From Lingula anatina (taxonomy: Eukaryota > Animalia > Brachiopoda): a stretch of DNA of 64,000 bases. Below are positions 92 to 26,374 of the stretch, in pieces. Both the position numbers and the translations under genes were made by a program. Position 1 is the first letter of the stretch. Every line of letters starts with the position of its first letter. Location of the stretch: the NCBI GenBank assembly GCA_051362555.1, contig CM120644.1:8564954-8628953 (forward strand), in the 5' to 3' direction. Below the pieces are notes generated by a model, which was not told the origin of the DNA, did no database searches, and saw only the letters and a program-made list of their open reading frames with translations.

Positions 92-649
92 TTAATGTTC
101 AATGTATTTACAAATAGGACAATGTGCCACTGTACTGATAGTAAGATCAGAACAAATTCCATTCCTTGTAAATTTAAGAGCAAGTCGTCGAAATCGAGTA
201 TACGTCATTTCTCGATCATCATTCATCAATAATTCATGATAATGCTTAACAGGAATATTCAAACGTCGCAATAATAGTACAGTAACTACAACTAACTTAG
301 TAACACTCCATGCATAATATAAAGATTGAATAATACATTTACCAAAATCTAATGGTATTTGATGCAACATGTATATCATGTAATCTTCAGATATCATCAA
401 ATAATGAGCACAGCCAATTAACTTCATAAAGTCCAACTTCTCGTCTAGGTTATTAAACCTTCCACAAAATGCAAACAAAATTGATTCATTTATCAAATCA
501 GATGAAAACTTAATCTGAAAATTCGGTTCTCTTTGTTGTTTGAAGTATAATTCATTTATATATACAGAATGTTTACGGAAGTTCTCGAAAAGCTTAAATG
601 ACAAAGTTACAATTCTGTCATCAATGTAAATGTGATGTACAAGTTTCAT
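92..649 (-). CDS. Unknown ~185-aa ORF downstream of env (putative accessory ORF of the retroelement)
   Basis: Open frame 92..742. ATG at 649 (MKLVHHIYIDD...) follows a pyrimidine tract and TTTGCAG acceptor at 656/655. The C-terminus has C-x8-H-C-x2-C-like residues (GICSDLTISTVAHCPIC). No recognisable family. Confidence 0.5.
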   Translation of the reverse strand: MKLVHHIYIDDRIVTLSFKLFENFRKHSVYINELYFKQQREPNFQIKFSSDLINESILFAFCGRFNNLDEKLDFMKLIGCAHYLMISEDYMIYMLHQIPLDFGKCIIQSLYYAWSVTKLVVVTVLLLRRLNIPVKHYHELLMNDDREMTYTRFRRLALKFTRNGICSDLTISTVAHCPICKYIEH

Positions 650-1159
650 CAGTTTCTGCAAAATCAAATAGAAAATAAGAAAAATGATAATAGACATATT
701 TACAAAATCATAATTGTTAAAAAAAAAAAACTCTAAGTACAACCATTAATATTCATAACATAGTAAAGTAAGTACAATACAGCATGCAAATAATAATGAT
801 CATGATTAACACAAAAAATCCTAATTATATATAAGTGATATGTAATAGATTTTATAAAAGCGCAAATAATCGTATTACATTATTCATAAAATAGTATATA
901 GTGATTAAAACAAATTCAATTTTTGTTAAAACTCATCGAGTTAATTCTGTGCGTCTCGCACACTCTCAATAATAATAATACATAGATCAGTTTCTTCAAT
1001 CATTGGAGTAACAGTGAGAAAAACTCAATCATAAAGTCATTAAAATGCTGTGATAGTACACACACCCTCTTACACCAAAAGTCCGCTCGCAAAGATCAAT
1101 GCACTTAGTAAATACTAGACACATGTAGCAAGTCAAGTCAAATTTAACTTGGACAAAGA

Positions 1160-3673
1160 TTAATCTGCATTGTGATCAAATGGCTCAAACTGAATATAGA
1201 AAAGTGCATTAGCATGTTTAATGCGCAAAAATGCATAATATTCACTCTTGAGTAATTTTCTGAGTTTAAAAGCTGTGACCATAGACAATGGGATAGCTCG
1301 TTCCAAAGTGATGATTTCGTTAGTTATAAGGTTTGTAATTTGCAGACCATGCCAATCTATTGTTAGGTGTGGACTGTAGGTACCTTCAACCTTTAAAATA
1401 TCAAAGTACGATTCATGACTTTGAAAAACCCAGTACTTTGGACATAATGACAGTTTTCTGATAGGAACCGAAATACATTGTTCATTGTTGGAAATCTCTA
1501 AAACCAGAGCATTTCTCTTAGACTTAAAGAATGTTCTCCTAATATGTCCCACAAGGAAAATCAAGAAGATAATGGTAATTACAATTTGCATTATTAAAAT
1601 AGGAAATGTCATTGAATCCGTGATAATCAGTACCTTCGGCTCATTACTATTTGTTTTTGTTGTGGAATCTAGTAACCAATACGGCATAGTAGGAACTATA
1701 TCGTTTCCACGTGCCTTCTTCAGCAAAGCCACTATAATTGCCAATTGCCTGACCTTGATTCCTAGGCAAATTATTATCACGAGCAATAAGCCCGACAACC
1801 CTATTGAAATCCAAACCAGTATTTGAGAAAAATCATCTGTAGAAAATATTTCGTCTGCTAGAATAGCATCTGCCATAGAAGAATAGATTTGCTCCTGACT
1901 TTTTGCTGCTTGAGCCATTTTTTGTAAGCTCAAATGATCAACTGAATCTTTCGCAAGGAAATGGGAAAAATTATGTTGAAATAATTGAAGAACATTCGAT
2001 TTAGAACTTAAGGGCTCACTAAATAAACCGTTGCTTCCAATTTTTGCAATTTGTGATGGTGAATAAAAGTACTGCAACAAACCTAAATTAATAGGATGTA
2101 GCTTTGTTATCTGCGAGTTGTTTTGACAACTTGCCACTCGGGGTGGGAGATAAAACTCGTCTAAGTTCAAACTGCAATAGCAAGGAATTTGAATGACACA
2201 ATAATGACAGCCTCTTAAAGAGGTCGACGTCTTAGGGCATTTCAGGGTAATGTCAGTTATGTTAACTAAAAGTAACTGACTCGTCAAAACGTCTCTTATC
2301 TGTGTTTTGACGGCATTGTGAATGAATCGAAAATTGCAAAACCGTTGAATTTCATCTGAAATCTCTAAAAACAGTGCAAGAGTGCAGTCTGGCTGAGTTA
2401 CAGATATCAGAGGAATATTATAACTGCAAAGTTTAAAATGGCTACCTTTGCAATGTCTCCAAGTAGATTCGTCAGGAATAGCATAATGTTGCCTATCTTT
2501 CGTAACTGCAAAATACTTGGGAAGGTAGAAAATTTGAGAGGCGTGATTTGTGGATTGATTAAGCGGGACTGGATACGTTATAACTTCGTACACTTTCAAA
2601 ACATGTGGATTAGATGCTACGGGAATTTTAAGAGTTATATACAACGAACGTTTGTACAAGCCGTATGTGAATTGAGCATGATGGAAATAATATCTCGGAT
2701 CCGAGTGAATAAGCTTCATTGGGATTGGCATCTTACGTAACTCGTCTTTAATCCTGGTAAGCGCCCTACCTAATTCCTCTGGTGGAACTAAAAATGATGA
2801 CAATTGTCCTTTTGTCAGCTGAATGCATGCTATTAATAAATTTTGAAATGAAAATAATAATTGAGAATTCGCCATCTCTTCATGTGCAAATAATCTTGAC
2901 ATAACCGCTGCTAATTCACTATTTTTAGCATAAATGTTTAAATCGAAACTTAATTTCTTTGCAATTTGATGGTTTTCAGCAATGGCAGATTTCATGTTTT
3001 CCATTCTACTGTCTACTGTGGTAATAAACGAGGACATTTGATGCTCTTGCTTAGTAAACAGATTAATTGTCTCCTTCTTTAAACTGTTAACATAATTTCT
3101 TAAATTCGTAACATCTGACTCACTAGAAACTCCAAACAGCATTTTAAATAAATTACCTGTCGGTAACAATGATCTTTTACTTCTGGTTTTTGATTTAATA
3201 CTTCGCAACTTAATTCGTGGCATCATATACAATATTGTCTTAAGGGTGAATCTTAAGTCGCGTATTGTTTGATTCTTTAACGTCGACAAGGTGCGTATTG
3301 CATCATCTATCCATATTTTACATCGTGGATTAATTATCTTACTGTCACCAATCTGTCCATCTGGACATGGCGTCAACCTTGTCGGTATTACATCAATTTT
3401 AGGTAATTTAAGCTCGAAGGAATGAGACCAATGGCCTACATTAAACAATACGTCAGAGAACGGTCTAAACTCAACACCATAATTTATGCGTTGCTCCGTC
3501 TTTGTTGTAGAGGCTGTCACAACGCTAATGGTCGCGAGAATCCATAGAGCCATTCTTTTGAAGGTCAATGCTCTGGGTTTGCAGCGCATACTGCTCAACT
3601 TATCCTCATCTAAGAAAAAGAGAAGAAACATAAGAGATAGGATAGATAGGAAAAACAGATATCCGGATATCAT
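1160..3673 (-). CDS. env: Envelope glycoprotein, class I fusion (baculovirus F / errantivirus env-like)
   Basis: 837-aa intact ORF. Signal-like MALWILATISVVTAS; furin site KTRSKR followed by fusion-peptide-like SLLPTGNLFKMLFGV (cleavage near 3173); heptad-repeat region; Cys-rich ectodomain with N-x-S/T sequons; TM ILVWISIGLSGLLLVIIICLGI plus a second hydrophobic segment. Confidence 0.88.
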   Translation of the reverse strand: MISGYLFFLSILSLMFLLFFLDEDKLSSMRCKPRALTFKRMALWILATISVVTASTTKTEQRINYGVEFRPFSDVLFNVGHWSHSFELKLPKIDVIPTRLTPCPDGQIGDSKIINPRCKIWIDDAIRTLSTLKNQTIRDLRFTLKTILYMMPRIKLRSIKSKTRSKRSLLPTGNLFKMLFGVSSESDVTNLRNYVNSLKKETINLFTKQEHQMSSFITTVDSRMENMKSAIAENHQIAKKLSFDLNIYAKNSELAAVMSRLFAHEEMANSQLLFSFQNLLIACIQLTKGQLSSFLVPPEELGRALTRIKDELRKMPIPMKLIHSDPRYYFHHAQFTYGLYKRSLYITLKIPVASNPHVLKVYEVITYPVPLNQSTNHASQIFYLPKYFAVTKDRQHYAIPDESTWRHCKGSHFKLCSYNIPLISVTQPDCTLALFLEISDEIQRFCNFRFIHNAVKTQIRDVLTSQLLLVNITDITLKCPKTSTSLRGCHYCVIQIPCYCSLNLDEFYLPPRVASCQNNSQITKLHPINLGLLQYFYSPSQIAKIGSNGLFSEPLSSKSNVLQLFQHNFSHFLAKDSVDHLSLQKMAQAAKSQEQIYSSMADAILADEIFSTDDFSQILVWISIGLSGLLLVIIICLGIKVRQLAIIVALLKKARGNDIVPTMPYWLLDSTTKTNSNEPKVLIITDSMTFPILIMQIVITIIFLIFLVGHIRRTFFKSKRNALVLEISNNEQCISVPIRKLSLCPKYWVFQSHESYFDILKVEGTYSPHLTIDWHGLQITNLITNEIITLERAIPLSMVTAFKLRKLLKSEYYAFLRIKHANALFYIQFEPFDHNAD

Positions 3674-3856
3674 TTAGGATTCAGTTAAGCTGCATAGCTG
3701 GTACTCCCAAAATTATACATTCGACCTTGTTTCTTTTTTATGGCATACCTTTTAGTTTTATTTTTCGTGTCTGTTATCTTCAGTCATTTTTATCAATGTA
3801 TCATTTGAAATTTTATTCGTAAACTCTTCTCTTAAGAGATTATAGCATCCTCATTT

Positions 3857-6800
3857 TTAATTTCTACGTTTTTTTCGTCTTCCTTGTAACGTCTTATTGA
3901 TATGATAATCTCTTTTTAATGCATCTGAAATATTTTCCTCAGGTTCCCAGGAAGAGTTCTTATAACCCTTCCACTTAACCTTGTAATGTCTCTTTGCGTT
4001 TATATTCTTACAACATAATAATTTTTCTACTTCATAATATTCATACGCGTCCTGTTTTTCGTCCGATGCGAGATCCGACTTTCTTGTTTCGCGTTTATCT
4101 ATGTCTTGTGTCTTAATATTCGTTTTCTTCCTGTTTGCCATGACTAGGTCGTGTGTACTGTCATTTAACCTAGTGTATTTATTATAGTCTCTAGGATCGT
4201 AGTACATTTTTAATCTGTTTGCATGAACAGGAGATTTATGTTCCTTATGTGTTTTACAATCTCTCAAATAATATGTGCACCCTGTTGATAATATCTTCGT
4301 TATGTAATACGGACCTTTGTACTTGGTGTACAATTTAGAACTTAATCCTTTAGGTGTCATTGGAGTATATATCCAAACTCTATCACCTACTTTATAACTC
4401 GGTTGCTTTGATTTAAGGTCATACCTTGCTTTATACTGTTTCTGAGCTACTTCCCTATTCTTTGTTGCAATTTCTTTTGCCGTTTTAAGGGCATCTTTCA
4501 ATTCTTCAATGTACTGAGGTAAATTTTTATTCTCATGATGTTCAGGGATTAAATCACTATCCAATGGCGTACGCATTTCTCGTCCAAAAACTAAATAATA
4601 AGGAGAAAACTTTGTAGACTGTGTACAAGGAGTTGCACGTAATGCCATCATTACTCCTGGAAGGATATCAGGCCAATTAGTTTGATCTTTCTCACAGTAT
4701 GCTCTCAAAGTTTGAGCAATTATTGAATTAGTTCTTTCACAGGCTGCATTGCTTTGTGGATGCCATGCGCTAGTATGATAGCGCTTGATATGGAATAATT
4801 TACACAGCGATTGAATAATTTGAGACAAAAAATTCTTTCCTCGATCAGAAACGAGATATGACGGACAACCATATCTTGTAAACACTTCTTTGTAAAGAGT
4901 CTTGGCGATTTCTTTGGCTTCCTGAGTTTTCAAAGGTATTGCTTCAGCAAAATTAGAAAAAGAACACGTTACCAACAAAATGTACTTATATCCTTCTTTT
5001 GATTTGATTAAGGGACCTAATATATCCATATGCATTCTTTCAAACACGCCTGCGATGGGTAAAGGATTCAAAGGTGCTGGAGCATCTCTACGCAAATGCT
5101 TAACCTTTTGGCACACTTCACATGATTTGACGTACTCCATGACGTCTTTATAAAGTGACTTCCAAAAATACTTATTCCTAATGGAGGCAAAAGTTCTATC
5201 ACAACCTTGATGACCGCCACCTGTCAAGGAATCATGATATGTATGTAAAACGTCGCTTCTGAGTGTTTCAGGGACAGCTAATTGTTTTATTATTCGCAGC
5301 TTCTCTGGCATTCCTCGCGAACGCGGTTGATAAAGGTGATACAAAACGTCATCTATCATCACGTATTGATCTGATTCTGCGATGATTTTACGCGCTTGTT
5401 TCAAGTCGTCGGGTAAATCGTTTAGTTCCAGATATCTTATTATATCTTGAAATTCAGGACATTCACGTTGGTCTTGTTTTAATTTTTCTTTCTCGTCTAC
5501 ATTTGTAACATCAACAACGTTTATGTCATCACATTGACTTAAGTGCTGCTCACTTCTCAATTTGCTAGTTTGTTTCGGTAAGTACAGCCTAGCTTGGGTG
5601 AAATTTTTATCTTGACACCTGTCAGTATCATCCGCGCTTAAGTGACTATCGTTGCTAACGGTATCTAAAACATTTACTGGTTCATATTCGCGTCTTGATA
5701 ATGCATCAGCTGGGTTTGTTTTTCCAGGTCTGTGAATTATTTCAAAATCTAGACCTTGTAACTTCAATGACCATCTTATAAGCCTGCCAGATGTATGTTT
5801 AACATTTTGTAGCCACGAAATTGCTTTATTATCTGTATACACTTTGAAGTGATTGTTAGACAAATATTGTTCAAATTGTTTTATCCCTTCAATTACTGCC
5901 AAACATTCTAACTCATGAATGGTGTAGTTCTTTTCGGCCTTGTTTAACGATCTCCCTCCATACGCAATAACCCTATCTTGATTGTTATCATTTTTTTGAC
6001 CTAAAATATAACCTATAGCGGAAGTAGATGCGTCCGTTGTTAATGTAAACTCGCGCGACATATCTGGATAAGCCAGTATTGGTGGTGACATTAACGCTTC
6101 TTTTAATGTTTGAAATGACGCTTCACATTCAGGACTCCATAAGAATTGTACGTCTTTCCTTAAAAGTTTATTTAAGGGATCTGCTATTTTACTAAAACCT
6201 TTAATAAATTTTCTGTAGAAGTTACACAACCCTAAAAAACTTCTAACGTCTCTTACAGATTTGGGGGTTGGAAATGATTTTATGGCTTCAAGATTTTTCT
6301 CATCTGGTCTTATTCCATTTTTATCTATTACATGACCTAAATATTTAGCTTTCGGTGTTGCAAACTTACATTTTGATGGCTTAAGTCTGAGATTTGCAGA
6401 TCTTAGTTTTTGGAATACTTGATTTAAATGTTTTAAGTGCTCGTCAAACGTTTTACTCATGACCAAAATGTCATCAATGTATATAAGTATTGTTTTCCAG
6501 TTCATGTCCCTAAAAATGTGACTCATTAATGCCTGGAAACTAACACCGGCGTTACGAAGGCCATACGCTAAACGTAAGAATTGGAAGTGACCATGGTGCG
6601 TGATGAAAGCAGTCTTGTGTTTAGTTTCAGGGTCAAGAGGTAATTGCCAGTATGCACCTGCCATATCTAAACTAGAGAAATATTTAGCACCTGACGTACC
6701 TATCGTTTCAAAAATATCTTCTAAACGTGGGAGTGGCCAGTGCATAGGTTTTGTAACTTTGTTCAACTTCCGGTAATCAATTGCGAATCTGTATTCTCCG

Positions 6801-7369
6801 TTTTTCTTTTTTACAAGTACTACTGGACTACTGTACTCGCTCATGCTTTCTTCGATTATTCCGTGTTGTAACATTTCGTCTACCTGCTTGACAATTTCAT
6901 TTTTTTGCTTTGGTGACGCACGATAAAATGTTTGTTTCACAGGAACATCATTTATTGTGTCAATTCTATGCTGATACATATTTGCTGAACCTAATTCTGA
7001 AAGATTGGTAGCAAAAACATCGCGATTACGGCCTAACAACATTTTCAACTGTAATTTTTGATCTTCACTCATGTCTGAATCGGCAAAGTTTATATTTAAT
7101 TCGTCTGCATTCCGCAATGCTTCTTGATCCGATAATCTATCACTTTTTTGCGTTAAGGTTCCTTTTGACATTTCATTCAAAACACTGACGCTAGTCAGAC
7201 TCACTGAACTCGCAATAGCTAATATTGTTCTTTTGGGGATGAAAATACTTTCATCGCTAGGGTTCATTATTCTGTAAGCAGAATTGTTTTTATCAATAGG
7301 AACCAAACATTTTGCTCCGATAAGTTTTTTCTTGGACTCAAGATTTCGTACTGGTTCTAATAAAGCCAC
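3857..7369 (-). CDS. pol: Pol: reverse transcriptase, RNase H, integrase with GPY/F motif and C-terminal chromodomain
   Basis: RT motifs SPVVLVKKK-YRFAIDYRKLN, YGLRNAG, IYIDDILV; RNase H TTDAS...ELECLAV...YTDN; integrase H-x-H...CEVC, HMDILGP, VSDRG, NAACERTN; YKGPY; chromodomain YEVEKLL...YKVKWKGY..SSWEPEENI. Confidence 0.97.
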   Translation of the reverse strand: MALLEPVRNLESKKKLIGAKCLVPIDKNNSAYRIMNPSDESIFIPKRTILAIASSVSLTSVSVLNEMSKGTLTQKSDRLSDQEALRNADELNINFADSDMSEDQKLQLKMLLGRNRDVFATNLSELGSANMYQHRIDTINDVPVKQTFYRASPKQKNEIVKQVDEMLQHGIIEESMSEYSSPVVLVKKKNGEYRFAIDYRKLNKVTKPMHWPLPRLEDIFETIGTSGAKYFSSLDMAGAYWQLPLDPETKHKTAFITHHGHFQFLRLAYGLRNAGVSFQALMSHIFRDMNWKTILIYIDDILVMSKTFDEHLKHLNQVFQKLRSANLRLKPSKCKFATPKAKYLGHVIDKNGIRPDEKNLEAIKSFPTPKSVRDVRSFLGLCNFYRKFIKGFSKIADPLNKLLRKDVQFLWSPECEASFQTLKEALMSPPILAYPDMSREFTLTTDASTSAIGYILGQKNDNNQDRVIAYGGRSLNKAEKNYTIHELECLAVIEGIKQFEQYLSNNHFKVYTDNKAISWLQNVKHTSGRLIRWSLKLQGLDFEIIHRPGKTNPADALSRREYEPVNVLDTVSNDSHLSADDTDRCQDKNFTQARLYLPKQTSKLRSEQHLSQCDDINVVDVTNVDEKEKLKQDQRECPEFQDIIRYLELNDLPDDLKQARKIIAESDQYVMIDDVLYHLYQPRSRGMPEKLRIIKQLAVPETLRSDVLHTYHDSLTGGGHQGCDRTFASIRNKYFWKSLYKDVMEYVKSCEVCQKVKHLRRDAPAPLNPLPIAGVFERMHMDILGPLIKSKEGYKYILLVTCSFSNFAEAIPLKTQEAKEIAKTLYKEVFTRYGCPSYLVSDRGKNFLSQIIQSLCKLFHIKRYHTSAWHPQSNAACERTNSIIAQTLRAYCEKDQTNWPDILPGVMMALRATPCTQSTKFSPYYLVFGREMRTPLDSDLIPEHHENKNLPQYIEELKDALKTAKEIATKNREVAQKQYKARYDLKSKQPSYKVGDRVWIYTPMTPKGLSSKLYTKYKGPYYITKILSTGCTYYLRDCKTHKEHKSPVHANRLKMYYDPRDYNKYTRLNDSTHDLVMANRKKTNIKTQDIDKRETRKSDLASDEKQDAYEYYEVEKLLCCKNINAKRHYKVKWKGYKNSSWEPEENISDALKRDYHINKTLQGRRKKRRN

Positions 7370-7387
7370 GGAGACAGATGAGGAATG

Positions 7388-7924
7388 TTATATTTTGACT
7401 GGAATCAAACATTCACTTCTTGGTGGAATAAATCCGGATTTAAAGTTACGTACTAAACCTAATACAGATGGACTATACAAGGGTAAGAGCAAATCATAAT
7501 CAGGCAGTGTCATGCTATCAGACGATAAATCAATTTTCACATTGTGTTTTCTTAGGAAATCTGTGCCTAATATCAAACCTCTTGGCAACTGACTAAATAC
7601 GTGGACTTTATGCTTTATGATCACATCACCAAAACAAAGAGGTAACTCTACTTTTCCCAGAACATTTATCACCGATCCATCAACAACTGAAACTTCTTTT
7701 AATGACGGTTTTTCGTATGAATTTCGATCCTTTTTCCCTAATTTTGATAAAAGGGATTCCGATACACAAGATATGACGGCACCTGTGTCAACTAAAGCAT
7801 TTACATGTACTTTCTCGATTTGAATTGATATTAAATTGTGAGGTTGATAATTTGACATAGCTACAAGTGGCACTTTTCTATTTTCAATTTTGTAATGAAA
7901 TTTTTCTTTTTTACTTTTTCCTAG
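7388..7924 (-). CDS. pro: Retropepsin-type aspartic protease, in frame with gag (after TGA) and with pol (before a single TAA)
   Basis: ALVDTGAVISC and LILGTDFL motifs. Reading codons by hand, 7924..7874 is open and in frame with the gag stop (7927-7925) and with the GTG at 7873. Confidence 0.9.
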   Translation of the reverse strand, partial: LGKSKKEKFHYKIENRKVPLVAMSNYQPHNLISIQIEKVHVNALVDTGAVISCVSESLLSKLGKKDRNSYEKPSLKEVSVVDGSVINVLGKVELPLCFGDVIIKHKVHVFSQLPRGLILGTDFLRKHNVKIDLSSDSMTLPDYDLLLPLYSPSVLGLVRNFKSGFIPPRSECLIPVKI

Positions 7925-9496
7925 TCATCTATTCACACGTGCAGCTTGACAGACTTTCGCTACGTGCCCAATCTTACCACAAAAATAACAACTAAGACTG
8001 CGAGCGAAACAATTTTGTCTGAGATGTGTGTACTCACCACATCCTTGACATCTTGGCCATTTGTTCATCGGTTTTCTCTGTTGAAGACGTCCAGCTGATG
8101 GTGATTTGTAATCTGGGCGACGCTGATAAGTGTTGCGCTGGAGCATACGTCTTGGGCCGTTGACGTTGGTCGAGAACCTTCTGGGAGGCACAAAAGGGCT
8201 CGCTCTTGGAGGTGCCAAGTCTCTCTCATCGCTAGTCGGCCTCGGGTTCTGTACCATATGGATCGCCGACTCGGACGTACGTGCGTTGGTACGTACGACA
8301 TCACTGATGGCGGTTTGCAACGCGTCTATTTTTTCTGTTATGAGCTTTATGTCAGTCCGTTCGTTCCTTTTGGTCGGCTGCACCGCATTTTCCGCGATAC
8401 GCGCATGGTGCATCAGAGACTCAAAATCCGAGGGTTCCCTCTGTACTACAAAGGGGCGGATCTCGGGGAGCAAGCCATTCATGATCATCGTAAGAGCCGT
8501 TCCCTCATCCAGCCGTGCAAGCTTTGCGTCGTGCCTCATTGCCGCAATATAGTTCTGCACCGGTTCCTCTGGCAGCTGATGCCTTTTGAAAAATTCTGAG
8601 GCTCTCGCCCACGTTTCTCCGTCTCGTAGTTGGTATCGAGCACGGAATTCGCGGACGAGCAATTCCCAGTTCTTTTTCACTGTCGCTGGTAACGACTCAT
8701 ACCAGTCTATGGCCGATTGCTTAAGCAATAGAGGGAATATTGACGTTATTTGTTCTTCGGTCAGTTCTTTATAACTAACATAGTTCTTAAAATGGGTTAA
8801 CCATCTTTCTACGTCTTCATCTCTGGTACCCTTGAATTTTTCAGGGGCTAACCCTAAATCTGAGGCCATGTTAGTTTTTTTATTAGTTTTTTGGACTGTT
8901 AGTACACTGTTCGTCGCTACCCACGATGCTTTCTGGGGATCTTGCCTTAATGTATTCGGTGTCGTCCTCAGTGAGGTCGATGACGATTGGGGAGCTAGCA
9001 CGGCTTGTGTCGTCGTCGTCGTCGTCGTCGTCACTGATGACGATAGGGGATTCTGGGCGATTTGAGATCGACTGTCGTCCGTTACCCTCGAATCTGTTGT
9101 AAGTTTGGCTGATACAAATGTTCGCAACGGTGTCGCTTCTTTGAGAAAAACTGACGGTGACTGTTGTTGAATAACTTGATTTATCAGACTGCATTTGTGA
9201 ACACCAGTTTTTTTATATTTAATATCAAGTAGATTTTCGTCTTCGTCGGACGATTCACTGCTAGACAACGAAATGTCAGTTTTTTGTTTACTTTCGCCTT
9301 CTGATTTAGTTTCAATAGTTTTTGGCGCGAACGTACAAGTAAAACACGGCGTGCCCGTGAACAAAGTTGGTATTTTCTCAGGTTTTTGCGGCGTCTTACA
9401 CGTACCTTCAATTTCTGAGACCAACAGTTTTTTCTGTACCGCAATTCTCGTGTTCGCTGCCGGAGGACTCCAAGTCTCTGGTCGATCAGCTTGCAT
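7925..9496 (-). CDS. gag: Gag polyprotein (capsid-like region plus two CCHC zinc knuckles); core start probably ATG 8869, with an in-frame upstream ATG at 9496
   Basis: MASDLGLAPEKFKGTRDEDVERWL (F-x-G...W retrotransposon gag motif), LKQSAIDWY, QLPEEPVQNY, CQGCGEYTHLRQNC and CYFCGKIGHVAKVC. Confidence 0.92.
   Translation of the reverse strand: MQADRPETWSPPAANTRIAVQKKLLVSEIEGTCKTPQKPEKIPTLFTGTPCFTCTFAPKTIETKSEGESKQKTDISLSSSESSDEDENLLDIKYKKTGVHKCSLINQVIQQQSPSVFLKEATPLRTFVSAKLTTDSRVTDDSRSQIAQNPLSSSVTTTTTTTTQAVLAPQSSSTSLRTTPNTLRQDPQKASWVATNSVLTVQKTNKKTNMASDLGLAPEKFKGTRDEDVERWLTHFKNYVSYKELTEEQITSIFPLLLKQSAIDWYESLPATVKKNWELLVREFRARYQLRDGETWARASEFFKRHQLPEEPVQNYIAAMRHDAKLARLDEGTALTMIMNGLLPEIRPFVVQREPSDFESLMHHARIAENAVQPTKRNERTDIKLITEKIDALQTAISDVVRTNARTSESAIHMVQNPRPTSDERDLAPPRASPFVPPRRFSTNVNGPRRMLQRNTYQRRPDYKSPSAGRLQQRKPMNKWPRCQGCGEYTHLRQNCFARSLSCYFCGKIGHVAKVCQAARVNR
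8883..9194 (-). CDS. 103-aa leader ORF with two SUMO-interacting-motif-like sequences, overlapping the gag-frame extension
   Basis: ATG at 9194; stop ends at 8883, just upstream of the gag ATG at 8869. Contains SPIVISDDDDDDDD and SPIVIDLTEDD. Confidence 0.55.
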   Translation of the reverse strand: MQSDKSSYSTTVTVSFSQRSDTVANICISQTYNRFEGNGRQSISNRPESPIVISDDDDDDDDTSRASSPIVIDLTEDDTEYIKARSPESIVGSDEQCTNSPKN

Positions 9497-9530
9497 CAGT
9501 AGAGCCGGGACCGCCTTTTCCTCCACCACT

Positions 9531-10002
9531 TATTATAGTGACAACAACGACGATCTGGAGCTTCAGATATTTATTCCCCACACTCAATTTTTCACAGAAT
9601 CTACAAGTATTTATATTCTATTTTCCATTCTCATATTTCCCATTCTCATATTACAAAACTCTATTCAATATTTCCTAATTTAGTAATTTAAATGAAACTT
9701 GTTTATGATTTAAAATATTTAAAATATTTTCCGAATTACTCATTTTGGATCCTGTCCAATTCAAGTATACATGAGTTCTACACGTGTTAAACACGCGCAA
9801 ATCGATAGAAAAATTAACCAATCGGATCCAACTATTTCGGACTCTGAAACGTTCCACCCTTTCCATCTTCGAGAACAGTCTCTACACTCGTTGACACTTT
9901 AAGAAATTTACTTTGTACTCGATAACTTTCTACACATTTGATTCTGTTTTAATTGTTTTGTAATTGCCGAAAGTGTATGTCATTTGCTTTACAACACTGT
10001 CA
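9531..10002 (-). repeat. Putative 5' LTR of the Gypsy element
   Basis: Non-coding segment between a candidate PBS (TGGTGGAG, 9528-9521) and a host exon ending at 10109. AATAAA on the minus strand at 9575-9570; possible TGACA...TGTCA termini at 10002/9539. No second LTR is available in the window for confirmation. Confidence 0.4.
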
Positions 10003-10108
10003 CAAATCACGGCACGATCGAACACTTTAAAAAGTTATTCAGTTCATCTCAACTATCATGTATGTGAAACACGACTTGCATATATATATTATGCGGTAAA
10101 GCACTTAC

Positions 10109-13100
10109 TTTCCATCGAACGTCCTCATATGCGGGTCGTTGTTCGACATGCATACCTGGCCGATGGCATCTACATCCGTATCTAACACCGTAACCTGAAA
10201 ATGGTTTTTAAACTTTTGAAAACGTTAATATAAATGCTTAATTTTTAAAATCATAACATTTTAAACCAGCATTTTATTGCACACCGTATATGTAATTTGA
10301 TATTTGATTCCATTTAACTGTCATACGAATGCCATTTTTGGTATATTTTCTGAGTAAACACTGCAATTTATCTTGGGTGCATGATCAGTGTCTGTTTATC
10401 TGTTGGCCAGACTACTATGAGAAATTGTAGGGGAATATTTTACACCTAGTTGGTGCGTATGTGGAGAAAACTAACATAAAATGCCGTGCTGTGGATAGAT
10501 TCGGTCATACTTACAGGTATATCGGGCAGTGTATAGTCGTTCCATGCGGGATGAGTAGTGAATTCCCCAGTGTGTACCATAACTTTGGTGTTCGTGTGGC
10601 CGTCATACACGCCATCGACAACCGGAGCTATCTTGAAGGTGTGTGTTTTGTTCCAATTCATTGCGTTGATTTCTAATCTGCAAGGTGTCCTCTCAAACTC
10701 TGAGACAAACTCCAGTCTTTCTCCGCTACTACATAGTCGCTTCTTTGGGACAAGCGGGATTCTTATCTCCACTGGGAGTAGCTGCTCATGGCAATAGCTT
10801 TGGAGCTTCAGATCAGAACACAGGACAGGGACTGTTGGTTGGAGTCTTATTTCGGTTGAGACAACATCGCTTTCCTTCAAAACTATAGGCAGAGTGTTAA
10901 GCACCTGCAAATATAAGTTGCCTTAATTTTATGCAGTACTACTGGTATTTATTAACTGGTATTCTATATATACATGTACTGAATATCTGGGCGTTACATT
11001 TCTTTGTGAATGTGAAGCGGCGTTTAACTTTTGAATTGAGAAGTAGGTTCACATTGTTCTGCCCGGAAAGACCGAGTAAGCATCAATCGTTCTAGATTTT
11101 ATCATACCAGTTAGTGCAATAGAACACCTATATTTATTACATCCATAGGATTTTTACGTTAAGCCAGCGTCAGGAATTATGACCATGTGCAGCCTTTGGT
11201 ATCTCAATGATTTGGGGCAGGAGTGCACTTCGATGCTTTATATCAATAAACAGGCCGATTGAAAGAATGATGCAATATGTAACGCCAATCGTATCTTAAG
11301 TTTTATAGCAACTGTAACTACAAATTAATTTTCTTCTAGACAAATTGTGACAAAAACCTTCCAGTACAAATCAAAGAAAGACAAGTAAAATTCTCAACAT
11401 AACAAAATAAACAAAACGTGAAGGTAACTTCTTTTCTGGGGCGACCTCTTACTCTAAAATGACTGACGAATTTACATTAGCTCAAGTGAACATACACCAA
11501 AAATACACATTGGGCGAGCAAAAAAGATCCCTTAGCCTCTTTAGCCTTTGACTTTTAGGAGTGCACACGTTGTGAGGCTGTGCTTTCCTTTACCTTTAGT
11601 CCCGCAAAAAACTCCTCGCTTTTCAAAGGTGCACTTCGTCCACCATGTATTATTCCATTTTTCATGAACTTTGCCCGCACGGTGCACTTAACCTTGAACA
11701 AATGACAATTACCCAGTTATAAGGAGGCTAGATTTACCTATCATCTTTTAAACTTAGATTTGTTCCAATTTTTTGAAATTTGTCTTTTATCTCTGAACTT
11801 AATTTTAAAAGACAGTTGAGACCATTACTTACTTTAAACCCCAGTGAGTGCTTCCCAACCCAGTGGGATTCCTTTAACGTCGCTGGCATGTTTTTGGTGG
11901 GCATGTCCTCGTCTTCTAGTATCTTTTTGCCATCAAAAAACCAATACACGTCGAAGAACAGCTCTCCACGTTTTTCTTCGGCAATTTGACCATACTGTTG
12001 GTCGCACTTGAACACTATTTCTTTAAAACGCTTCCCCCACTGATTTTGTCTAATGCCTTCGCCGACGCTCACTTCTGGGATTTGAGTGATGTTGGGAAAT
12101 ACATCTGTGGAATGTAGTTGTGAACATAAAATTAAGTTGAAAAGCTATTTTAATGTAATCTGCTCATTTTGTACCATTATATATGTAATATGCTGAATAC
12201 ATGTACGTGCAGTATCGATAATAGGACATGCGGTTCTCTATCTTTCAAATTAAAAGGATTAAAGATTAAATTCGGTTGGTATTCAATGTTCTGAACCCAC
12301 AGCTCGTTAATTAGATTGTTAGGGAGCACACAGTTACATGGGCCACATTGGATAATTTTGTACCATCAGGGCCAAAGGTGAAAGTTGCATGCTTCTCACC
12401 TGTACATCCCGGTTGAAATCCAGTTTCAGACGTGTGGCCTGGTGGGCAAAGGACCTTGTCACCTAGAACATTTGTAGAAACAGGGATTGTTTTCACAATA
12501 CGTTTAACTGTCATAATATACAATGGCTTTGTCTTACAACTTGACTTTGAATAAAGTCTCAGAAAATTAGTTTTTATGTTTGCAGACATCAATTCTTGTC
12601 TCTGTCTTAGTCATCCAAAGCCTCCACATACAGACTTGACATTTAATATGGAATATTTTTTTCCAAATCATTTTTCATCAGTTTTTTCCTATTTTGCTGA
12701 CTGATAAATGAAAATAAGGCTTAAAATTGGGTTTTAATAACTTTTAATTATCCTTTTGATGTCATTGTGTCTTCAGTTAATTAATGGAATTCGCCAGAGA
12801 AGCAAACAAAAACACATTGCCTATTCTATGTCATACGACAACAATTAAAAGAGATATTTTGGATCACCATATTTTCCAAATTATTTTCTGTAAAAGAGTT
12901 ACACGCCTCACAAAGAACCCCCATGTCAGTGTCTAGTCACAGTAACGGTCGCTGTTACGCTTGACCTCTTCTGTCTGCTACCAGCGCTCTCAAGGGGCAA
13001 GGCATTCCTTGGGTTAGGTTTTTAGAGTTAAATCTGGAATAACATTCCAGGCATCGGTCAAAATCTGTCCAATTTGGTCCAGTTTTGTTGTAGGACATGT

Positions 13101-14554: not shown

Positions 14555-17500
14555 TGCAATAGAAAAAAAGCAAGTACATAAATTTTTACAAGCACACAAT
14601 ATTCATTACAATACCAAAGTCCACAAGGATTTAACGAATAAGAAAATTATAGTCAATAATTTGTATACATGCAACTACACAAATCCATATATACCCCTCC
14701 ATTTCTGCCATATAACATTGAATTTATCTAAGTCTTGAGATACAATGTATTTTTGCTTATAGATTTTGTATATATTTTCTAAATAAAGTTGAAGTTTTGT
14801 GAGTAACAGTGCGTCTTTCTGACATTTTGTTTTGTATATGAAAAACTTAATGTGTATAGTCATGATTATATTGGATACATTACGTTCATTAATGTCAATT
14901 AAAATAAACTGTATATTACTGAAATTTAAATATATATTACAAGAAATTAACCATGCTTCTACTTGGCGTAAGAAGTTTTGTACAATATTACAATCCCAAA
15001 GTATATGATATATAGTTTCTACCTCCTCGTGGCAAAATGTACACATAGGTGATTGACTTAGGCCAGTTTTATATACAAAGTTATTTGTGGTGAGGATTCT
15101 ATAGAAAATTCGAAACTGGAACCACAGCATTTTTGTGTCCTTTACCGACACATTGGTTTTCTTATATATCTTTTCCCAAAAACTATGATCCCGAGGAGTA
15201 AAAATATTTGACCATTTTTCCTCAAAAATAGGCCTAACATTCGAGCTATTTAATATGTCGTACATATCTTTTGATCCCCTTGTTTGTCTTACAATAACTC
15301 GTATACCTTCTGGTTGCCACGGACCGTACATTTTGATTTTATGTGGATTGAATTTTTTTCTGTATAGATCATTTATTGTTGCGATAATACCATTGTATTG
15401 TAAAAAATTGATTTTAATATTGGAGAGTTCAGAAAATTCTTTATATGAATAAAGTCTACCTTTTTCATTGATAAGATCGTTCACTTGTCTAAATCCTTTA
15501 TCATACATCTCTTTATGGAACAGCGTCTCTTTATTTATCCTCAAAGAGTCACTGTACCATAAGGGGACTTTATTCAACTCGGTCATTTGTTCTTTTTTTT
15601 TCAACAATTCCTGCCAAGCTAAAAAAACATCCTTCCAAAATAAATTCTGTGTGCCTGTTTGACAGAAGCGCAAATATTCACAACCACAGTTTAGCATCAA
15701 GTCTAATTTATATCTATGCAAAAGGATATTTTGCCAAATACCCTCCCTATTTATCAACCGTCTCACCCAAGTTAATTTTAATGCCATTATTGTAGCTTCT
15801 ACGTTTATCATATTTAGTCCTCCATCTTTTATTTTTTTACATACTATTTCCCTTTTTACTTTATCCGGTTTACCTTTCCAAAGAAATCCAAAGATTAGCT
15901 TTTTTAGCTCCTTAATTATTTGGTTAGATGGGTTAGGCAGTGAAATAAAAAGATGGTTAAATTTCGATATTATGAGACTTTTAATCACTGTAATTCTGCC
16001 GACGGGGGTCAAAATTCGTCTTTCCCATAGTTTAAGTAATCGTTCAGTACTTTCAATTTTTCCCCGATAGTTCCTTTCACATATAGTATCTAGTTCGACA
16101 TAGAATTTAATACCTAATAATTTAAAAGACGTTGCACCCCATATTAATGTCCAATTTTTGCACAGTTTCTCATTTGAATTTTTTTTACTCCCTATCCAAA
16201 TAACCTGAGTTTTGTCATAATTTATTTTTAAACCCGAAATTTTTTCAAACCATCTTAGATCCTGTAGGGAGGCGTTAAGGGATTGTTCAGAACCATCTAA
16301 GATTAAGGACGTGTCATCTGCATATTGCGATATTTTGTATTCATTTTCCCCAATTTGTATTCCTTTAATTTGAGGGTTATTCTTTATGCTTACCGAAAGA
16401 ATTTCAGAACATAACAAAAATAAATATGGTGATATCGGATCACCTTGTCTCAGTCCACGCTGTGGTTGAAACATTTCGGATAAATGACCTCCTTGATTTA
16501 CTCTTGAAGTAATGTTTTTATAAAAGGTTTTAATGTAATTTATTATGTCTGGACCAAAATTAAAGAAAATAAGAACTTGATTTAGAAAGTCCCATGATAT
16601 ACTATCGAATGCCTTCTCAAAATCTATTAGAAGTAATATTCCAGGTACATGGTTTTCCTCAGTATACTGCATGAGATCATAGATTAAACGAGTATTTTCC
16701 CCTATGTATCTTCCTTTTAGGAAACCAGTCTGTTCTTTACTTATCAGTTTATCCAATACCGTTTTTATTCTACTTGATACGACACCTGAGGCAATCTTGT
16801 AAACGGTATTCAATAGTGTAATAGGGCGCCAATTTTTTAAAAATTGTTTTGGTCTATCCTCCTTTGGAATGCATGTTATGATTCCCTCCCTTTGGGTGAC
16901 AGAGAGCTGCCCATGTGTAAGACCATAATTTAAAGATCGTATAACAAAGGTCCCTACTTTCGCCCAAAAAAACTTTAAGAATTCCACAGTAAATCCGTCC
17001 GAACCTGGACTTTTATCGTTTCTCATTTTTGTGAGGAATATCTTGGCTTCAACATTAGTTATTGGACCTTCTAGGCTTTCCCTCTCATCTGTAGTCAGTT
17101 TTGGTACATTAAAATCTTTTAAATTTGTTTGCCAATCAATATCAGCACACTGTGTATTTTCTGAGTACAATTTTTCGTAAAACTTTTTTGTTTCTTTTAA
17201 GATTTCATTCTGCTCAGTAATATATTCATTTTCACCAACCTGTAGTCGGGGAATAATTTTTTGTGTAAATTTTCTTTTTTCAAGGCTCAAAAAATATTTT
17301 GTGGGTTTTTCTCCCTCAGTTAACCATTTCTCGCGCGATCTAATAATACTACCTTTTAACCTTGCACTTCTCATCTCAACTAACTGTTGTTTTTTCCTTT
17401 CTAATTCTAGTTGAAGACGGGCATCACACTTTTCATAATCTTCTGTTAATTGTTCTATTTCTTTCATAAGCCCTTTTTCTACCTCTTGTAATTTTTTCTT

Positions 17501-20500
17501 TTTAAAACATGCATACGAAATAGTCGTTCCTCTTAAACGTAAAAGCAAAAGTTCTAGAAACATCTGATCATTCACCATAAACTGCAATTCTTGGTCAGGA
17601 ATGTTGTCAACATTTTCAAGATTGTATATAGGAATGCAATATTCTTTTTTAAAATCTCGTATGGATTCATTAATTTTTTCGACATAGGTCATGTCGTATA
17701 GAAGGGAATTATTAAATTTCCAGAGTCCTCTTCCTCGCTTAAAACTGTCAAATTTTACTTGAAGTTTAATTGGTGAGTGATCTGATCTATAACTAAGTAG
17801 GGTGCTAACTGAGACCAAATTTGGAACTAAATTATCTGAGGTGAGAAAGAAATCCAGCCTGGCTTGTTTAACTGGATTTCTTTTGCGCCAAGTGAAATTA
17901 GACACATTCCCATATAGTTCTCTAAATGGGTCTAAATAGCCGTTTTCTTTTATCATATTTAAAACACTTAATCTTGCCTTGGGGTTATTTATCCGTGAAT
18001 AATTATAGTAATCAGTATCTGGATTCAAAACCAGGTTAAAATCTCCACAAATTATTTGAAATTCGCTGTCCATTTCATCGATCTTTTTGAAAAGGTTTTC
18101 AAAGAATGCGGGGTTATCAGTGTTAGGACCATAGATATTTGCAACTGTTACTATTTTATCATCAACGTCAAATTTCAGAATAAGCATATTCCCGGATTCG
18201 TCCTTGAATTCCTGTAGCAATTTAAAAGTTATGTTATTTTGTAGTAGAATTGCTACGCCTCGGGCGTTTGAGGTATAAGAACTGAAATAAGCTTCGTAAC
18301 CCCATTCATTCCTTATCTGAGCTTCTTTTTCATAAGTAAAATGTGTATCCTGTAAACAGAGGATATTACATTTCAAATTTCGTAAATATTGAAAGACGTC
18401 TTTTCTCTTCTCAAAACTCCCCATACCTTGACAGTTTACGCTGATAATTTCTATCATTTCAAGTTGTTAGCTATATTAATATTCCATGTGACTGCAACAT
18501 CGTCTAGCGGGGTCTCCCTCGTCTTCCTCTCTCGGCACGGTCTGACAGGCTGCGAGCGCGTTGTTGACCCGTGGCATGAATCACATCCTGCTGAGAAGTA
18601 TTTGTTCCACGTGCCGTGCTCTGATGCATGTCGGGTGGGATAAACTCACGATCGTCAATATATAATTTATCCATCACCAAAACAGCCTTCTTTCCATCCC
18701 TTTTTGCTGCCCTCAAATGGGTCATCAAAAGTTTTCTCTTTTCGTTGATCTCCTTCGGGAATTGTTCGTTTACTCCAAAGGGTTTGCCAACTAGGGTGCG
18801 CGGCGCGGCTTTCCTCACCATCTCCCGATCTCGATAGGATGAAAATTTTGCTACTATCGGTCGATGTCTACCATTTATTCTCCTTCCTATCCTGTGCACC
18901 CGATCAAAGTTTATGTCCTCGTCAAACCGCATCTCTTTTTTGAGGAAATTCTGTAATAAATTTTCCGGTAATTCGTTGTTTTCCTCCTTAATTCCGGTGA
19001 AAATTAAATTGTCCCGCATCGACCTTGCCTGTAACAACACGTGACGATCACGTAACTCATTCAGTTTTTCAGTCATATTTACTATGTCAGATCTGAGTTG
19101 TACATTTTCTTTTTGCAGCTCTACTTCATTTATTTGTATCTCTTTTAAAACGGTTTTTGTTTCATCGTTATTCAAGTCATTCTCGTCCAATTTGTCACAC
19201 GCAAATTTCACACTTTTCTCTAGTTCATTTACGTGTTGTCTTAGATCTTCTACTTCAGTTGTGACCTTATGAATCCGTAATTCAAAAACGTTAAGTTTAC
19301 TTTCAATAACGTCTAGTTTCTCAAGTTTTTGGCACATTTTTTCTAAAGTTTGTGCTATGTCTTCAATCTTTGAGTCGTGGACTGCTTGCTGAGTACTTAT
19401 CGTTCTTGTTTGAGGGTTTGCTGGCGTAACACGGAAAGTATCATTGTTATTCATGACTTTATTGGGCGCCGCAGGCGTTGAACAAAGCTGTGCTAGCGTG
19501 AAATCCTCACTGCTTTGAGAATTGCTCATCACCGCGATCTTATTACAACTACTCAGGCTTTCTTCTTCACTGCCAGATTTTGATTCTTTTTTCCTCTTTT
19601 TTCCTATCTTTCTCTTCTTTTTAGCGTTATAGGACATTCCAAAAAGGTTCACTTATAGTTCATACGTAATCCAGTCATTTTTTAATACCTTCTGATCAAC
19701 CAAAAAGTGTTCAAAACTCACTTTTACCGGAGAGGTTTTGACCCTTGTGTGTGCTTGTCTCGGCCTCGTTTTCATTACCTGAATGTCGTATGACTTTGCA
19801 CAACAGTTTCCGGTTTCCTTCATGCAAGCGGTTCTGTTGACAACGCCTTCTTCCTCATCGGGGTGTGAATCTGGAAGCGAAGAAAGAAACTGCGATACTG
19901 AAACACATTTAAAAAGATGAAAGTGGGAAGGAAATGATGAATAGTAAAAGTGACAGTTTGCCAAATGAAAATGACCAAAACAAACAAATGAACAAAAAAG
20001 CATAATGGCTTTTGGGTCTGTCTTTGGGTTATCCGTGCTCAAGGTAGGTTCTACTAACGTTACAGAACAAACTGCCCACCGTTAAGCCAGATAGGTCTCT
20101 CTGTCCCACAGTTCCCGTGAACAATGCACGTGGTCGGCATCGTGCTCCCAGTTAACATGTCGAAGCGGTACCAGCTGTTGTTGAGGTGATTGTCGCAATT
20201 TATGGGCAATTCAGACAAAAAGGTCGAGCTTCTGGTTACTTCATCCTTCCGCACAGTGTGTTGCACACAGGGATTAAATTCTTTAAGTTAAAAAATATGT
20301 AGGCCTATATTGTTATGATTTGGTTTTAAATAAATATACATTATAAAGTTTATGTAGCCAATGAACAGTTAAGACATGGAATCTTTTGCAAAATCACCCT
20401 GCACTTTAAGCAATTACAAAGTGCGTTATACTATTTTACCTGGTATATGCAGTGTGTTTTGATGGTCTTACGTTCAGAATTTTCATGTTCATATCGGATA

Positions 20501-25333: not shown

Positions 25334-26374
25334 TCATTTTTGAAACCCCAGCAAACGTTTAAATCTTTGTCGGAATAATGAACCGCAAAGCCCGTAAAAG
25401 AAAAAATTAACTGACGAGTTCAGACTTGCTAGAAAAAAACCCGTGGGTGTTGTCCAGCTTTCAATGACTGCAATGATCTCAAACTGTCCGGCCATATTAT
25501 CCACGAAAGCCAAAACGAGGAATGTAAGAGTAACAGGTAACACAGTTAATATATAAAATGTCATCAGTAACATTACCGTTTTCATTATCTGTATGGAATT
25601 ATAACTGTTCGTATTGTTCATTGCTAGTCGAATTTCAGCTTGCCTCCTCAAGGACTGAATAAGTTTCGCGTGTAGAAAAAGCATGAACCCATTTGGTAAA
25701 ATGTTGAAAATGAGAGGAAGCACCTTGCGGTAAACAAGTTCATGGCTGTTGGTCCATTCCTTTAAACGAACATCCAGACAGAAGTCACCCGAGTTGTATC
25801 CACAAGGAAGAAATCCAACAATTTCAGTGTCAAAAAACTTCGGAAATTGATACATTGTGATCATTGTTAATAACACAAGCGTCCTCCACCGCCATTGTGA
25901 TACCTTTCGAAACTCAATGCTTTTCACAGGTCTGTCAATTGCGAGATAACGGTCGAATGCTACAAAAACTAGCAGAAAAACGGAAGAAAGTCTTGCAATC
26001 AGCATGATTGGCCAAATATAAACGGTGATCGGCTGCATTGCGACAAAGTACCAGTCAATCCACCCTGAATAGACATGCAAAGCAGGTAAATGAACGATAA
26101 ATATCGCCGTGATTAAATATATATTATCCGTGATTGCTATCCAGGACAGTAAATAATTAGTCGATTCATTTGCTCTCTCCTTGTAGAATACAATGAAAGA
26201 CAGGGTGTTGCAAATTATTCCAATCAGACCAACGGCCAGTGACACGAATCCTAGAACAACGACGGTGTACAAGTTTAAGGCCGTTCGATGAATGGCGGTG
26301 CCATTGACCAGCGTACTGTTCAATGTATTTGCTGAGAAATTCAATTCGTCCTTATCGTCAAAGAAAGTTGCCAT
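25334..26374 (-). CDS. Intronless class A GPCR, FMRFamide/sex-peptide-receptor-like expansion family
   Basis: Seven hydrophobic segments; GIICN (TM1), STNYLL...AITD (TM2), FDRYLAI (TM3), FPKFF, NSSVNFFFY (TM7), FRQRF helix 8; N-terminal N-glycosylation sequons. ATG at 26374. Confidence 0.9.
   Translation of the reverse strand: MATFFDDKDELNFSANTLNSTLVNGTAIHRTALNLYTVVVLGFVSLAVGLIGIICNTLSFIVFYKERANESTNYLLSWIAITDNIYLITAIFIVHLPALHVYSGWIDWYFVAMQPITVYIWPIMLIARLSSVFLLVFVAFDRYLAIDRPVKSIEFRKVSQWRWRTLVLLTMITMYQFPKFFDTEIVGFLPCGYNSGDFCLDVRLKEWTNSHELVYRKVLPLIFNILPNGFMLFLHAKLIQSLRRQAEIRLAMNNTNSYNSIQIMKTVMLLMTFYILTVLPVTLTFLVLAFVDNMAGQFEIIAVIESWTTPTGFFLASLNSSVNFFFYGLCGSLFRQRFKRLLGFQK

What the first reader, a model, noticed from the sequence alone, without database searches (positions are those of the whole stretch)
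92..10002. Retrovirus-like Gypsy element with env, chromo-integrase, readthrough gag-pol and two candidate accessory ORFs
Seen: an almost intact element with gag-pro-pol in one frame, an 837-aa fusion-type env, a chromodomain on integrase, a leader ORF with SIM-like motifs and an additional ORF after env. Known: env-bearing Ty3/Gypsy elements are best studied in insects (errantiviruses), which usually have three ORFs and no chromodomain, while classical chromoviruses generally lack env. Inference: this may be a 'complex' infectious endogenous retrovirus-like lineage of a non-insect invertebrate, with chromatin-targeted integration and accessory proteins. It is the strongest candidate for an undescribed system in the window.
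Basis: partly seen in the sequence, partly recalled or inferred. Interest (0 to 1): 0.85.

Follow-up and report, generated by a model that had tools for sequence, protein, structure and literature searches.

The report
Envelope retrotransposon with BTB-like accessory gene
This is a retrovirus-like jumping gene of an invertebrate whose main design (envelope gene plus chromatin-reading integrase) is already published, but it also carries an extra gene with a distant relative elsewhere, predicted to be BTB-like, and a small overlapping frame with SUMO-binding-type motifs, which would be accessory genes for dealing with host defences.

Summary
The anatomy is real: on the minus strand a 466-nt 5' LTR, PBS, gag, pro-RT-RNase H-integrase with a chromodomain, an F-type (class I) env, and a further 201-codon ORF (ORF4). 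The headline claim is not new: Chary & Hayashi (eLife, PMC13524379) describe a cnidarian/mollusc/annelid clade of env-bearing Ty3/gypsy elements with chromodomains. Corrections: the element has two in-frame stops (TGA-CTAG after gag, likely programmed readthrough; a second that is private to this copy), and env is likely made by splicing, not from the 837-aa ORF start. What my searches did not find in print: ORF4 lies inside the element, is far longer than chance, has a 36%-identical distant homologue, and both score as BTB-like by language-model features only (Pfam, PDB and folding were inconclusive); an overlapping 103-aa frame has tandem SIM-type motifs (absent from the one relative whose leader I could read); and the env model's best viral match is an uncharacterised abalone-herpesvirus protein. 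Verdict: new variant of a known kind.

The parts
9531..9996 (-). 5' LTR (~466 nt), begins with TG; right end does not show the canonical CA in this copy
   Evidence: Contigs end at 9996 with unlike flanks in 3 of 4 DNA runs shown (10, 6, 8 contigs, agreement 0.42-0.5) and depth peaks at 9601-9984 in 4 of 4; 328 RNA reads leave the stretch at 9533
9570..9615 (-). TATA box (9615), likely transcription start (9572-9581), poly(A) signal (9575)
   Evidence: Motifs; read starts pile up at 9572, 9579, 9581 in run X18, from a related copy
9517..9528 (-). Primer-binding site, TGG-initiated
   Evidence: Sequence; the same 12-mer is listed once in the eLife supplements, for Crassostrea ariakensis errantivirus 3; priming tRNA not identified
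7925..9496 (-). gag frame: weak ATG 9496 with a 209-aa low-complexity extension; strong-context ATG 8869 at the capsid domain; CCHC knuckle
9400..9408 (-). Predicted splice donor (last exon base 9406, phase 1)
   Evidence: Only 8/9 consensus donor upstream of the capsid, 1 of 3 in 9.6 kb; no spliced read seen
8883..9194 (-). Overlapping 103-aa ORF with tandem SIM-type motifs (PIVISD + acidic run; PIVIDLTEDD); its frame opens at an A7 run (9208-9214) and ends 14 nt before the capsid ATG
   Evidence: no homologue found
7921..7927 (-). gag stop in TGA-CTAG context, pol in frame behind it; likely programmed readthrough
   Evidence: relative L002 has an in-frame TAG-GGA at the same junction; motif function from PMC4132726
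3857..7924 (-). pol: protease, RT (YIDD), RNase H, integrase; broken in this copy by a stop at 7388-7390
   Evidence: Pfam; all contigs covering the stop differ from the window in 4 of 4 DNA runs
3920..4036 (-). Chromodomain at the integrase C-terminus
   Evidence: PF00385 E 5.2e-8, 33.1 bits vs cut-off 25.1
3609..3628 (-). Predicted env splice acceptor (first exon base 3609, phase 1, in frame with the 9406 donor)
   Evidence: Only 14/14-pyrimidine acceptor in 9.6 kb; not observed in RNA
1160..3673 (-). F-type class I env: signal-like helix after ATG 3553, RSKR furin-type site (aa 164) and hydrophobic fusion-peptide-like segment, two C-terminal TM segments, conserved ~120-aa tail
92..697 (-). 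ORF4, internal gene between env and the 3' LTR; likely start ATG 649; predicted BTB-like N-terminal part and a C-terminal Cys/His cluster

Best explanation
This is a likely recently inserted, singly broken copy of a multi-copy 'ancient errantivirus' (env-bearing Ty3/gypsy element with chromo-integrase) that likely makes Gag-Pol by stop-codon readthrough and Env by splicing, and that carries a real extra gene, ORF4, predicted to be a divergent BTB protein that would act as a host-interfering accessory factor. Shown: LTR boundary, PBS, domain order, class I fusion fold of env, ORF4 inside the element and homologous to a distant protein. Inferred: transcription starts near 9580; leaky scanning over two weak AUGs (9496, 9194) to a strong one (8869) gives long Gag, the SIM peptide and short Gag; UGA-CUAG readthrough gives Gag-Pol; a 9406-to-3609 splice puts the first 30 leader codons in frame with env; the chromodomain steers integration to methylated chromatin; Env allows cell-to-cell spread. 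Most likely role of ORF4 (about 45%): a BTB adaptor or decoy for a Cullin-3 ligase or for host BTB repressors; of the SIM peptide (about 35%): a SUMO decoy against SUMO-dependent silencing.
For: Domains. LTR edges and raised depth over ORF4 (X1 967-1228 vs 51 on the flank; summed depth, not a copy number). Five RNA reads join the LTR start (9996) to position 1, placing the 3' LTR just left of the window and ORF4 inside the element. Identical contigs at 244-272 depth vs 51 on the flank in X1, and an X5 contig identical over 9997-10357 that continues into other sequence, fit a young, possibly polymorphic insertion. Env model matches RSV/paramyxovirus F (best E 2.3e-8); 1 of 7 homologues hits Baculo_F 3e-13. 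All 6 of 6 env-bearing loci found have a pol C-terminus just upstream; Pfam Chromo is significant in 2 of 5 scanned, weak in 1. In-frame stop at the gag-pol junction recurs in L002 (pol 42% identical) with a different leaky context and a downstream hairpin (7 of 200 shuffles fold as well). Only 2 ATGs in the 659 nt before the capsid ATG vs 7.6-10 expected (P 0.015, 0.004). ORF4 homologue P0009: E 3.7e-6 among 1.84 billion, 36% over 112 aa. ESM Atlas: ORF4 top hit BTB 0.91; P0009 22 of 30 hits BTB, 0.92, recognition 2734.
Against: BTB rests on one kind of evidence: Pfam gave no hit for ORF4 or P0009, the 3-sequence profile found 0 PDB chains at E<=10, the single-sequence model was unusable (pLDDT 45), ORF4's Atlas recognition (2146) and shared features (164; 143 for P0009) are under the tool's reliability marks. 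2 of the 3 library hits for ORF4 (P0010, P0011) look spurious. No ORF4 or SIM-ORF match in 0 of 6 related loci, most of them short. The 14 listed ORF4 differences in the expressed relative are 6 synonymous, 8 non-synonymous, 0 stops; not distinguishable from neutral (20-34% expected) nor from pol (13 of 20; p 0.30). Some DNA contigs carry one-base gaps at 644-648 and deletions across ORF4. The 9996-to-1 joint has only 25 letters on its short side and comes from a 90-99% relative. No spliced read was seen; the phase-matched donor/acceptor pair did not clearly recur in L002. No RNA structure follows the window's gag stop (z +1.6). In run X18 the env body and gag are uncovered at 93%.
Confidence: 0.62

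Rival explanations
1. An ordinary three-ORF ancient errantivirus; ORF4 is a captured host BTB-gene fragment that rides along without function, and the SIM frame is a by-product of a low-complexity gag extension.
For: ORF4 differences look near-neutral; absent from 6 of 6 related loci; gaps in some copies; relatives L002 and P0008 also have disordered gag extensions without a SIM frame.
Against: A 217-codon open frame at 27% GC (0 of 5000) that is too diverged for Pfam BTB implies long maintenance, not recent capture; a separate 36%-identical homologue exists; an alternative-frame ORF of this length arose in 0.9% and a SIM-b motif in 0.3% of 5000 codon-shuffled controls (motif chosen after seeing it).
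Confidence: 0.25
2. The SIM frame is the true 3' half of a separate ~200-aa leader gene (reached by a -1 slip at the A7 run, or split by an old frameshift), and Gag starts only at ATG 8869 by termination-reinitiation.
For: The SIM frame opens exactly at the A7 run and ends 14 nt before a strong-context ATG; the gag-frame reading there is poly-Thr/Ser, typical of an off-frame read.
Against: Gag frame stays open across the SIM ORF, expected in 0.18% of controls; near-identical contigs (8685-9071, 0 differences) keep the same layout; no stimulatory fold behind the run (z -0.3).
Confidence: 0.25
3. ORF4 lies in the U3 of a long (~1.6 kb) LTR that starts at the purine tract near 1065, as sag does in MMTV, and the 5' LTR here is truncated.
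For: A PPT-like tract followed by TG sits at 1065-1071; its distance from the PBS (8.46 kb) matches several published molluscan elements with 1.3-1.8 kb LTRs.
Against: Flanks beyond 9996 are diverse across contigs and the 466-nt unit is 2.5-10 times deeper than the ORF4 region in 4 of 4 runs, as expected for short solo LTRs.
Confidence: 0.08

Closest known systems
Chromodomain-carrying 'ancient errantiviruses' of Cnidaria/Mollusca/Annelida (Chary & Hayashi, eLife, PMC13524379)
   Same: gag-pol-env order, Ty3/gypsy pol, F-type env with furin site, chromodomain after integrase, LTRs; PBS 12-mer identical to C. ariakensis errantivirus 3
   Different: The main text has 0 occurrences of 'readthrough', 'accessory', 'frameshift', 'upstream ORF', 'abalone', 'malacoherpes'; no fourth ORF or SIM frame is described. 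Their sequences (GitHub) and figures were not visible, so this family may be among their 1512 elements.
Insect errantiviruses (gypsy, ZAM, Idefix)
   Same: F-like env; env from a spliced RNA (recalled), predicted here
   Different: No chromodomain and frameshifted gag-pol (recalled); a separate clade in the eLife tree
Chromoviruses (Tf1/Sushi, CRM, Reina)
   Same: Integrase chromodomain
   Different: env present; the eLife clade is placed basal to chromoviruses
Bdelloid LTR retrotransposons with captured ORF3 genes (PMC5408684, abstract and word search)
   Same: Extra genes captured behind pol in an invertebrate gypsy lineage
   Different: There the extra ORF (GDSL esterase, DEDDy exonuclease) is the third ORF; 0 mentions of BTB, ORF4 or SUMO; here ORF4 is additional to env
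Abalone herpesvirus uncharacterised protein A0A145VUZ2 (801 aa)
   Same: Best BFVD structural match to the env model: E 5.5e-29, 800 columns
   Different: 16% identity, TM-score 0.31, model pLDDT 58; RNA-virus glycoproteins follow at 3.6e-23; sequence not available to me, so descent is untested

Membership tests
Errantivirus (operational sense of PMC13524379) | Ty3/gypsy pol, order PR-RT-RH-IN | tested here: met
   Pfam domain order
Errantivirus (operational sense) | gag with capsid domain upstream of pol | tested here: met
   PF03732 2e-7, CCHC
Errantivirus (operational sense) | F-type or gB-type env after pol with furin site and TM anchor | tested here: met
   Foldseek to RSV/NDV F; RSKR site and TM segments
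Errantivirus (operational sense) | Two LTRs, PBS, PPT, target-site duplication | tested here: inconclusive
   5' LTR and PBS shown; 3' LTR inferred just outside the window from 5 reads; PPT and TSD not readable
Errantivirus (operational sense) | Intact ORFs in multiple near-identical copies | tested here: inconclusive
   This copy has a private pol stop; identical contigs at several times flank depth suggest siblings, but depth is not a copy number
'Ancient' group | RNase H followed by a 'mini' domain, no pseudo-RNase H | not tested
   Both folding jobs went to env and ORF4
Chromodomain clade of PMC13524379 | Chromodomain C-terminal to integrase | tested here: met
   PF00385 5.2e-8
Chromodomain clade of PMC13524379 | RT phylogenetic placement in that clade | not testable with these tools
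   Reference pol sequences are not in the supplements I could read
BTB/POZ proteins (ORF4) | Profile match to PF00651 | tested here: inconclusive
   No Pfam or PDB profile hit; language-model neighbours are BTB for ORF4 and P0009
BTB/POZ proteins (ORF4) | BTB fold | tested here: inconclusive
   Model pLDDT 45, no Foldseek match
BTB/POZ proteins (ORF4) | Dimerisation or Cullin-3 binding | not testable with these tools
UGA-CUAG readthrough signals | UGA followed by CUAG with an in-frame downstream ORF | tested here: met
   (CTAG by local composition 0.002); motif per PMC4132726 passages; efficiency not measured

The most novel reading that the evidence does not exclude
A 'complex' invertebrate retrovirus-like lineage: an enveloped Ty3/gypsy element with true accessory genes, a BTB protein that hijacks or blocks Cullin-3/BTB-based host restriction and an overprinted SUMO-binding decoy against chromatin silencing, whose class I envelope shares ancestry with the unidentified fusion protein of mollusc herpesviruses.
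Probability: 0.3. Interest if true: 0.8.

Novelty: new variant of a known kind. Interest (0 to 1): 0.5.

Why it matters
Accessory genes that counter host restriction are a hallmark of complex vertebrate retroviruses; none turned up for errantiviruses in my 10 literature searches. If ORF4 is a BTB adaptor and the SIM peptide is made, they point to which ubiquitin and SUMO pathways restrict retroelements in lophotrochozoan-like hosts, and both are small and testable. The structural lead to an abalone-herpesvirus protein offers a candidate for the malacoherpesvirus fusogen and a mollusc parallel to the baculovirus F/gypsy env link. The env + chromodomain architecture itself adds only another member.

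Tried and rejected
No whole genome held, so the 3' LTR, PPT and TSD could not be read. No LTR repeat within the window. Word-index search for ORF4: 70 candidates, 0 hits. Gag search: 1 weak hit, uninformative on the extension. Viral-contig scans with env, env alignment, pol and ORF4 alignment: 0 loci in 4 scans; genome contigs with the ORF4 alignment: 0 of 77 stretches. PDB sequence searches for ORF4, env and the ORF4 profile: nothing significant. VIA search of the whole env model was dominated by helical hairpins; NDV F at Z 8.0, rmsd 19.3, 300 aligned; the env tail was barely tested. No RNA holder was listed among indexed runs. RNA runs X12 and X15 gave 3 and 13 reads, too few to use; X17 (84 reads) fits sense transcription of pol/env, but its few ORF4 reads lie on the other mate direction. 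Complex prediction for an ORF4 dimer was not available. Earlier-findings look-ups: 4 calls, nothing returned (62, 72, 93, 94). No tRNA in the window to match the PBS. Literature searches that found no report of a BTB or SIM accessory ORF, or of a malacoherpesvirus link: (listings only; the library lacks most subscription journals, and Repbase was not searchable). Rejected: chance ORF4; chimeric adjacency of env and chromo-integrase (6 of 6 loci); a shared second pol stop.
Full report
Observation. Pfam gives capsid, CCHC, protease, RT, RNase H, integrase and a chromodomain (E 5.2e-8) in Ty3/gypsy order. The gag-pro-pol frame has two stops. The first (7925-7927) is TGA followed by CTAG, the context shown to drive readthrough in mammalian genes and alphaviruses (PMC4132726, passages). 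A distant relative, L002 (pol 42% identical), also has pol in frame behind a single stop, TAG-GGA, with a hairpin behind it. I therefore read it as programmed readthrough (inferred, about 85%); whether sibling copies share it could not be read directly because the difference tables were cut (40 of 1139 rows shown). The second stop (7388-7390) differs from every covering contig in 4 of 4 DNA runs, so it is private to this copy.

Boundaries. No genome is held. Contigs of four DNA runs leave the stretch at 9996 into unlike flanks and depth peaks over 9601-9984; 328 RNA reads leave it at 9533. The LTR is thus about 466 nt, followed by a PBS whose 12-mer occurs once in the eLife supplements, in an oyster element. 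Five RNA reads of a related copy join 9996 to position 1 (25 letters on the short side), placing the 3' LTR just left of the window, so ORF4 is internal. Identical contigs at about five times flank depth in X1 and a possible empty-site contig in X5 suggest a young multi-copy family (depth is not a copy number).

Env. Seven homologues at 29-49%, one with a Baculo_F hit. The model (pLDDT 58) matches RSV and paramyxovirus F in the PDB and, best among viral models, an uncharacterised 801-aa abalone-herpesvirus protein (E 5.5e-29, 16% identity, TM 0.31), a lead only. All 7 full-length sequences have two C-terminal hydrophobic segments and a 115-140-aa tail conserved at 25-34%. Homologues start near ATG 3553. 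The single strongest acceptor in 9.6 kb (3609) and the only strong donor in the leader (9406) are both phase 1, which would join the first 30 leader codons to env; no read shows this and L002 does not clearly repeat it. All 6 env-bearing loci found (6 of 81 pattern matches) carry a pol C-terminus directly upstream, so env and chromo-integrase are not a chance neighbourhood.

Leader. After a TATA box at 9615, read starts pile up at 9572-9581 in X18. Only three ATGs lie between the PBS and the capsid, inclusive: 9496 and 9194 in weak context, 8869 in strong context; ATGs are depleted (2 vs 7.6-10). ATG 9194 opens the 103-aa frame with tandem SIM-type motifs (motif class recalled). In 5000 codon-resampled controls an alternative frame this long arose in 0.9%, the SIM-b motif in 0.3%, and the gag frame stayed open across the SIM frame in 0.18%; the motif was chosen after seeing it. 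Both frames therefore look maintained, but L002 has no such frame and no homologue was found. Leaky scanning is my preferred reading; a slip or old frameshift at the A7 run is the rival.

ORF4. Open for 217 codons at 27% GC, 0 of 5000 controls. A full HMMER search found 3 hits; one, P0009 (251 aa), is a convincing homologue, 36% over 112 aa, with Cys/His clusters at the C-terminus; its context is unknown. Language-model features place both near BTB proteins, more firmly for P0009 (22 of 30 hits, recognition 2734) than for ORF4 (2146, weak); by eye the motif order fits BTB as I recall it. Pfam, PDB profile search and folding did not confirm it. A 90-99% relative is transcribed over ORF4 in 1 of 4 RNA runs at usable depth; its 14 listed differences include no stop but are not clearly under purifying selection, and some DNA contigs have gaps in ORF4. 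None of 6 related loci matches ORF4. I judge it a real gene (about 75%), BTB-like (about 60%), acting as a Cullin-3/BTB adaptor or decoy (about 45%; inference from poxvirus BTB proteins and retroviral ligase adaptors, recalled).

Comparison with what is known. PMC13524379 (seen: abstract, passages, sections 5, 6 and 9 first parts, 7, 14; supplement 1 rows for 31 of 46 molluscan elements, all F-type; supplement 4 molluscan rows; supplement 2 first part) describes env-bearing gypsy elements across metazoans and a Cnidaria/Mollusca/Annelida clade that all carry a chromodomain; 12 of 19 molluscan elements tested there have one. Its figures and GitHub sequences were not visible and may bear on whether this family or ORF4 is already catalogued. 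Extra ORFs in LTR elements are known in rotifers (PMC5408684, abstract and word search) and plants (listings). Alloherpesviruses are said to use class I-like fusogens (PMC13030845, passages). No listing described a BTB or SIM accessory ORF in an errantivirus or the malacoherpesvirus link.

Verdict. The core is a member, by architecture, of a published group (tree placement untested). The extras, an internal BTB-like gene with a distant homologue, an overprinted SIM frame, in-frame readthrough and a structural lead to a mollusc herpesvirus protein, make it a new variant of a known kind. Interest 0.5.

Noticed in passing
window 9533-9615: In run X18 a related LTR seems to act as a promoter: read starts pile up 35-45 nt behind the TATA box and 328 reads run from the LTR end into one other sequence (chimeric transcript).
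   Followed up: partly
window 1160-1530 (env residues 717-837): Conserved beta-rich tail behind a second TM segment in 7 of 7 full-length env homologues; fold not identified; could be a separately processed or matrix-like domain.
   Followed up: partly
window 1065-1071: PPT-like purine tract followed by TG, 8.46 kb from the PBS, inside the element; possibly a relic of an older LTR start.
   Followed up: partly
window 10006-10018: The flank just outside the 5' LTR resembles the tRNA-His PBS listed for other molluscan errantiviruses; possible insertion into an older element.
   Followed up: no
window 14675-19652 (-): Apparently intact LINE: 382-codon ORF1 and 1263-codon endonuclease-RT ORF2 (L1/Tx1-like by eye).
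   Followed up: no
window 25334-26434 (-): Single-exon 366-codon ORF that reads like a rhodopsin-family peptide receptor (by eye).
   Followed up: no
window 35636-47520 (+): Four paralogous EF-hand ORFs in tandem, like invertebrate sarcoplasmic calcium-binding proteins (by eye).
   Followed up: no
window 49925-51850 and 61560-63110; 56135-57003: Arrays of ~160-nt repeats in opposite orientation, and a 29-nt minisatellite.
   Followed up: no
L003:517-891: A relative's integrase tail scores PWWP (0.0013) above Chromo (0.026): possible divergence among Royal-family readers.
   Followed up: no
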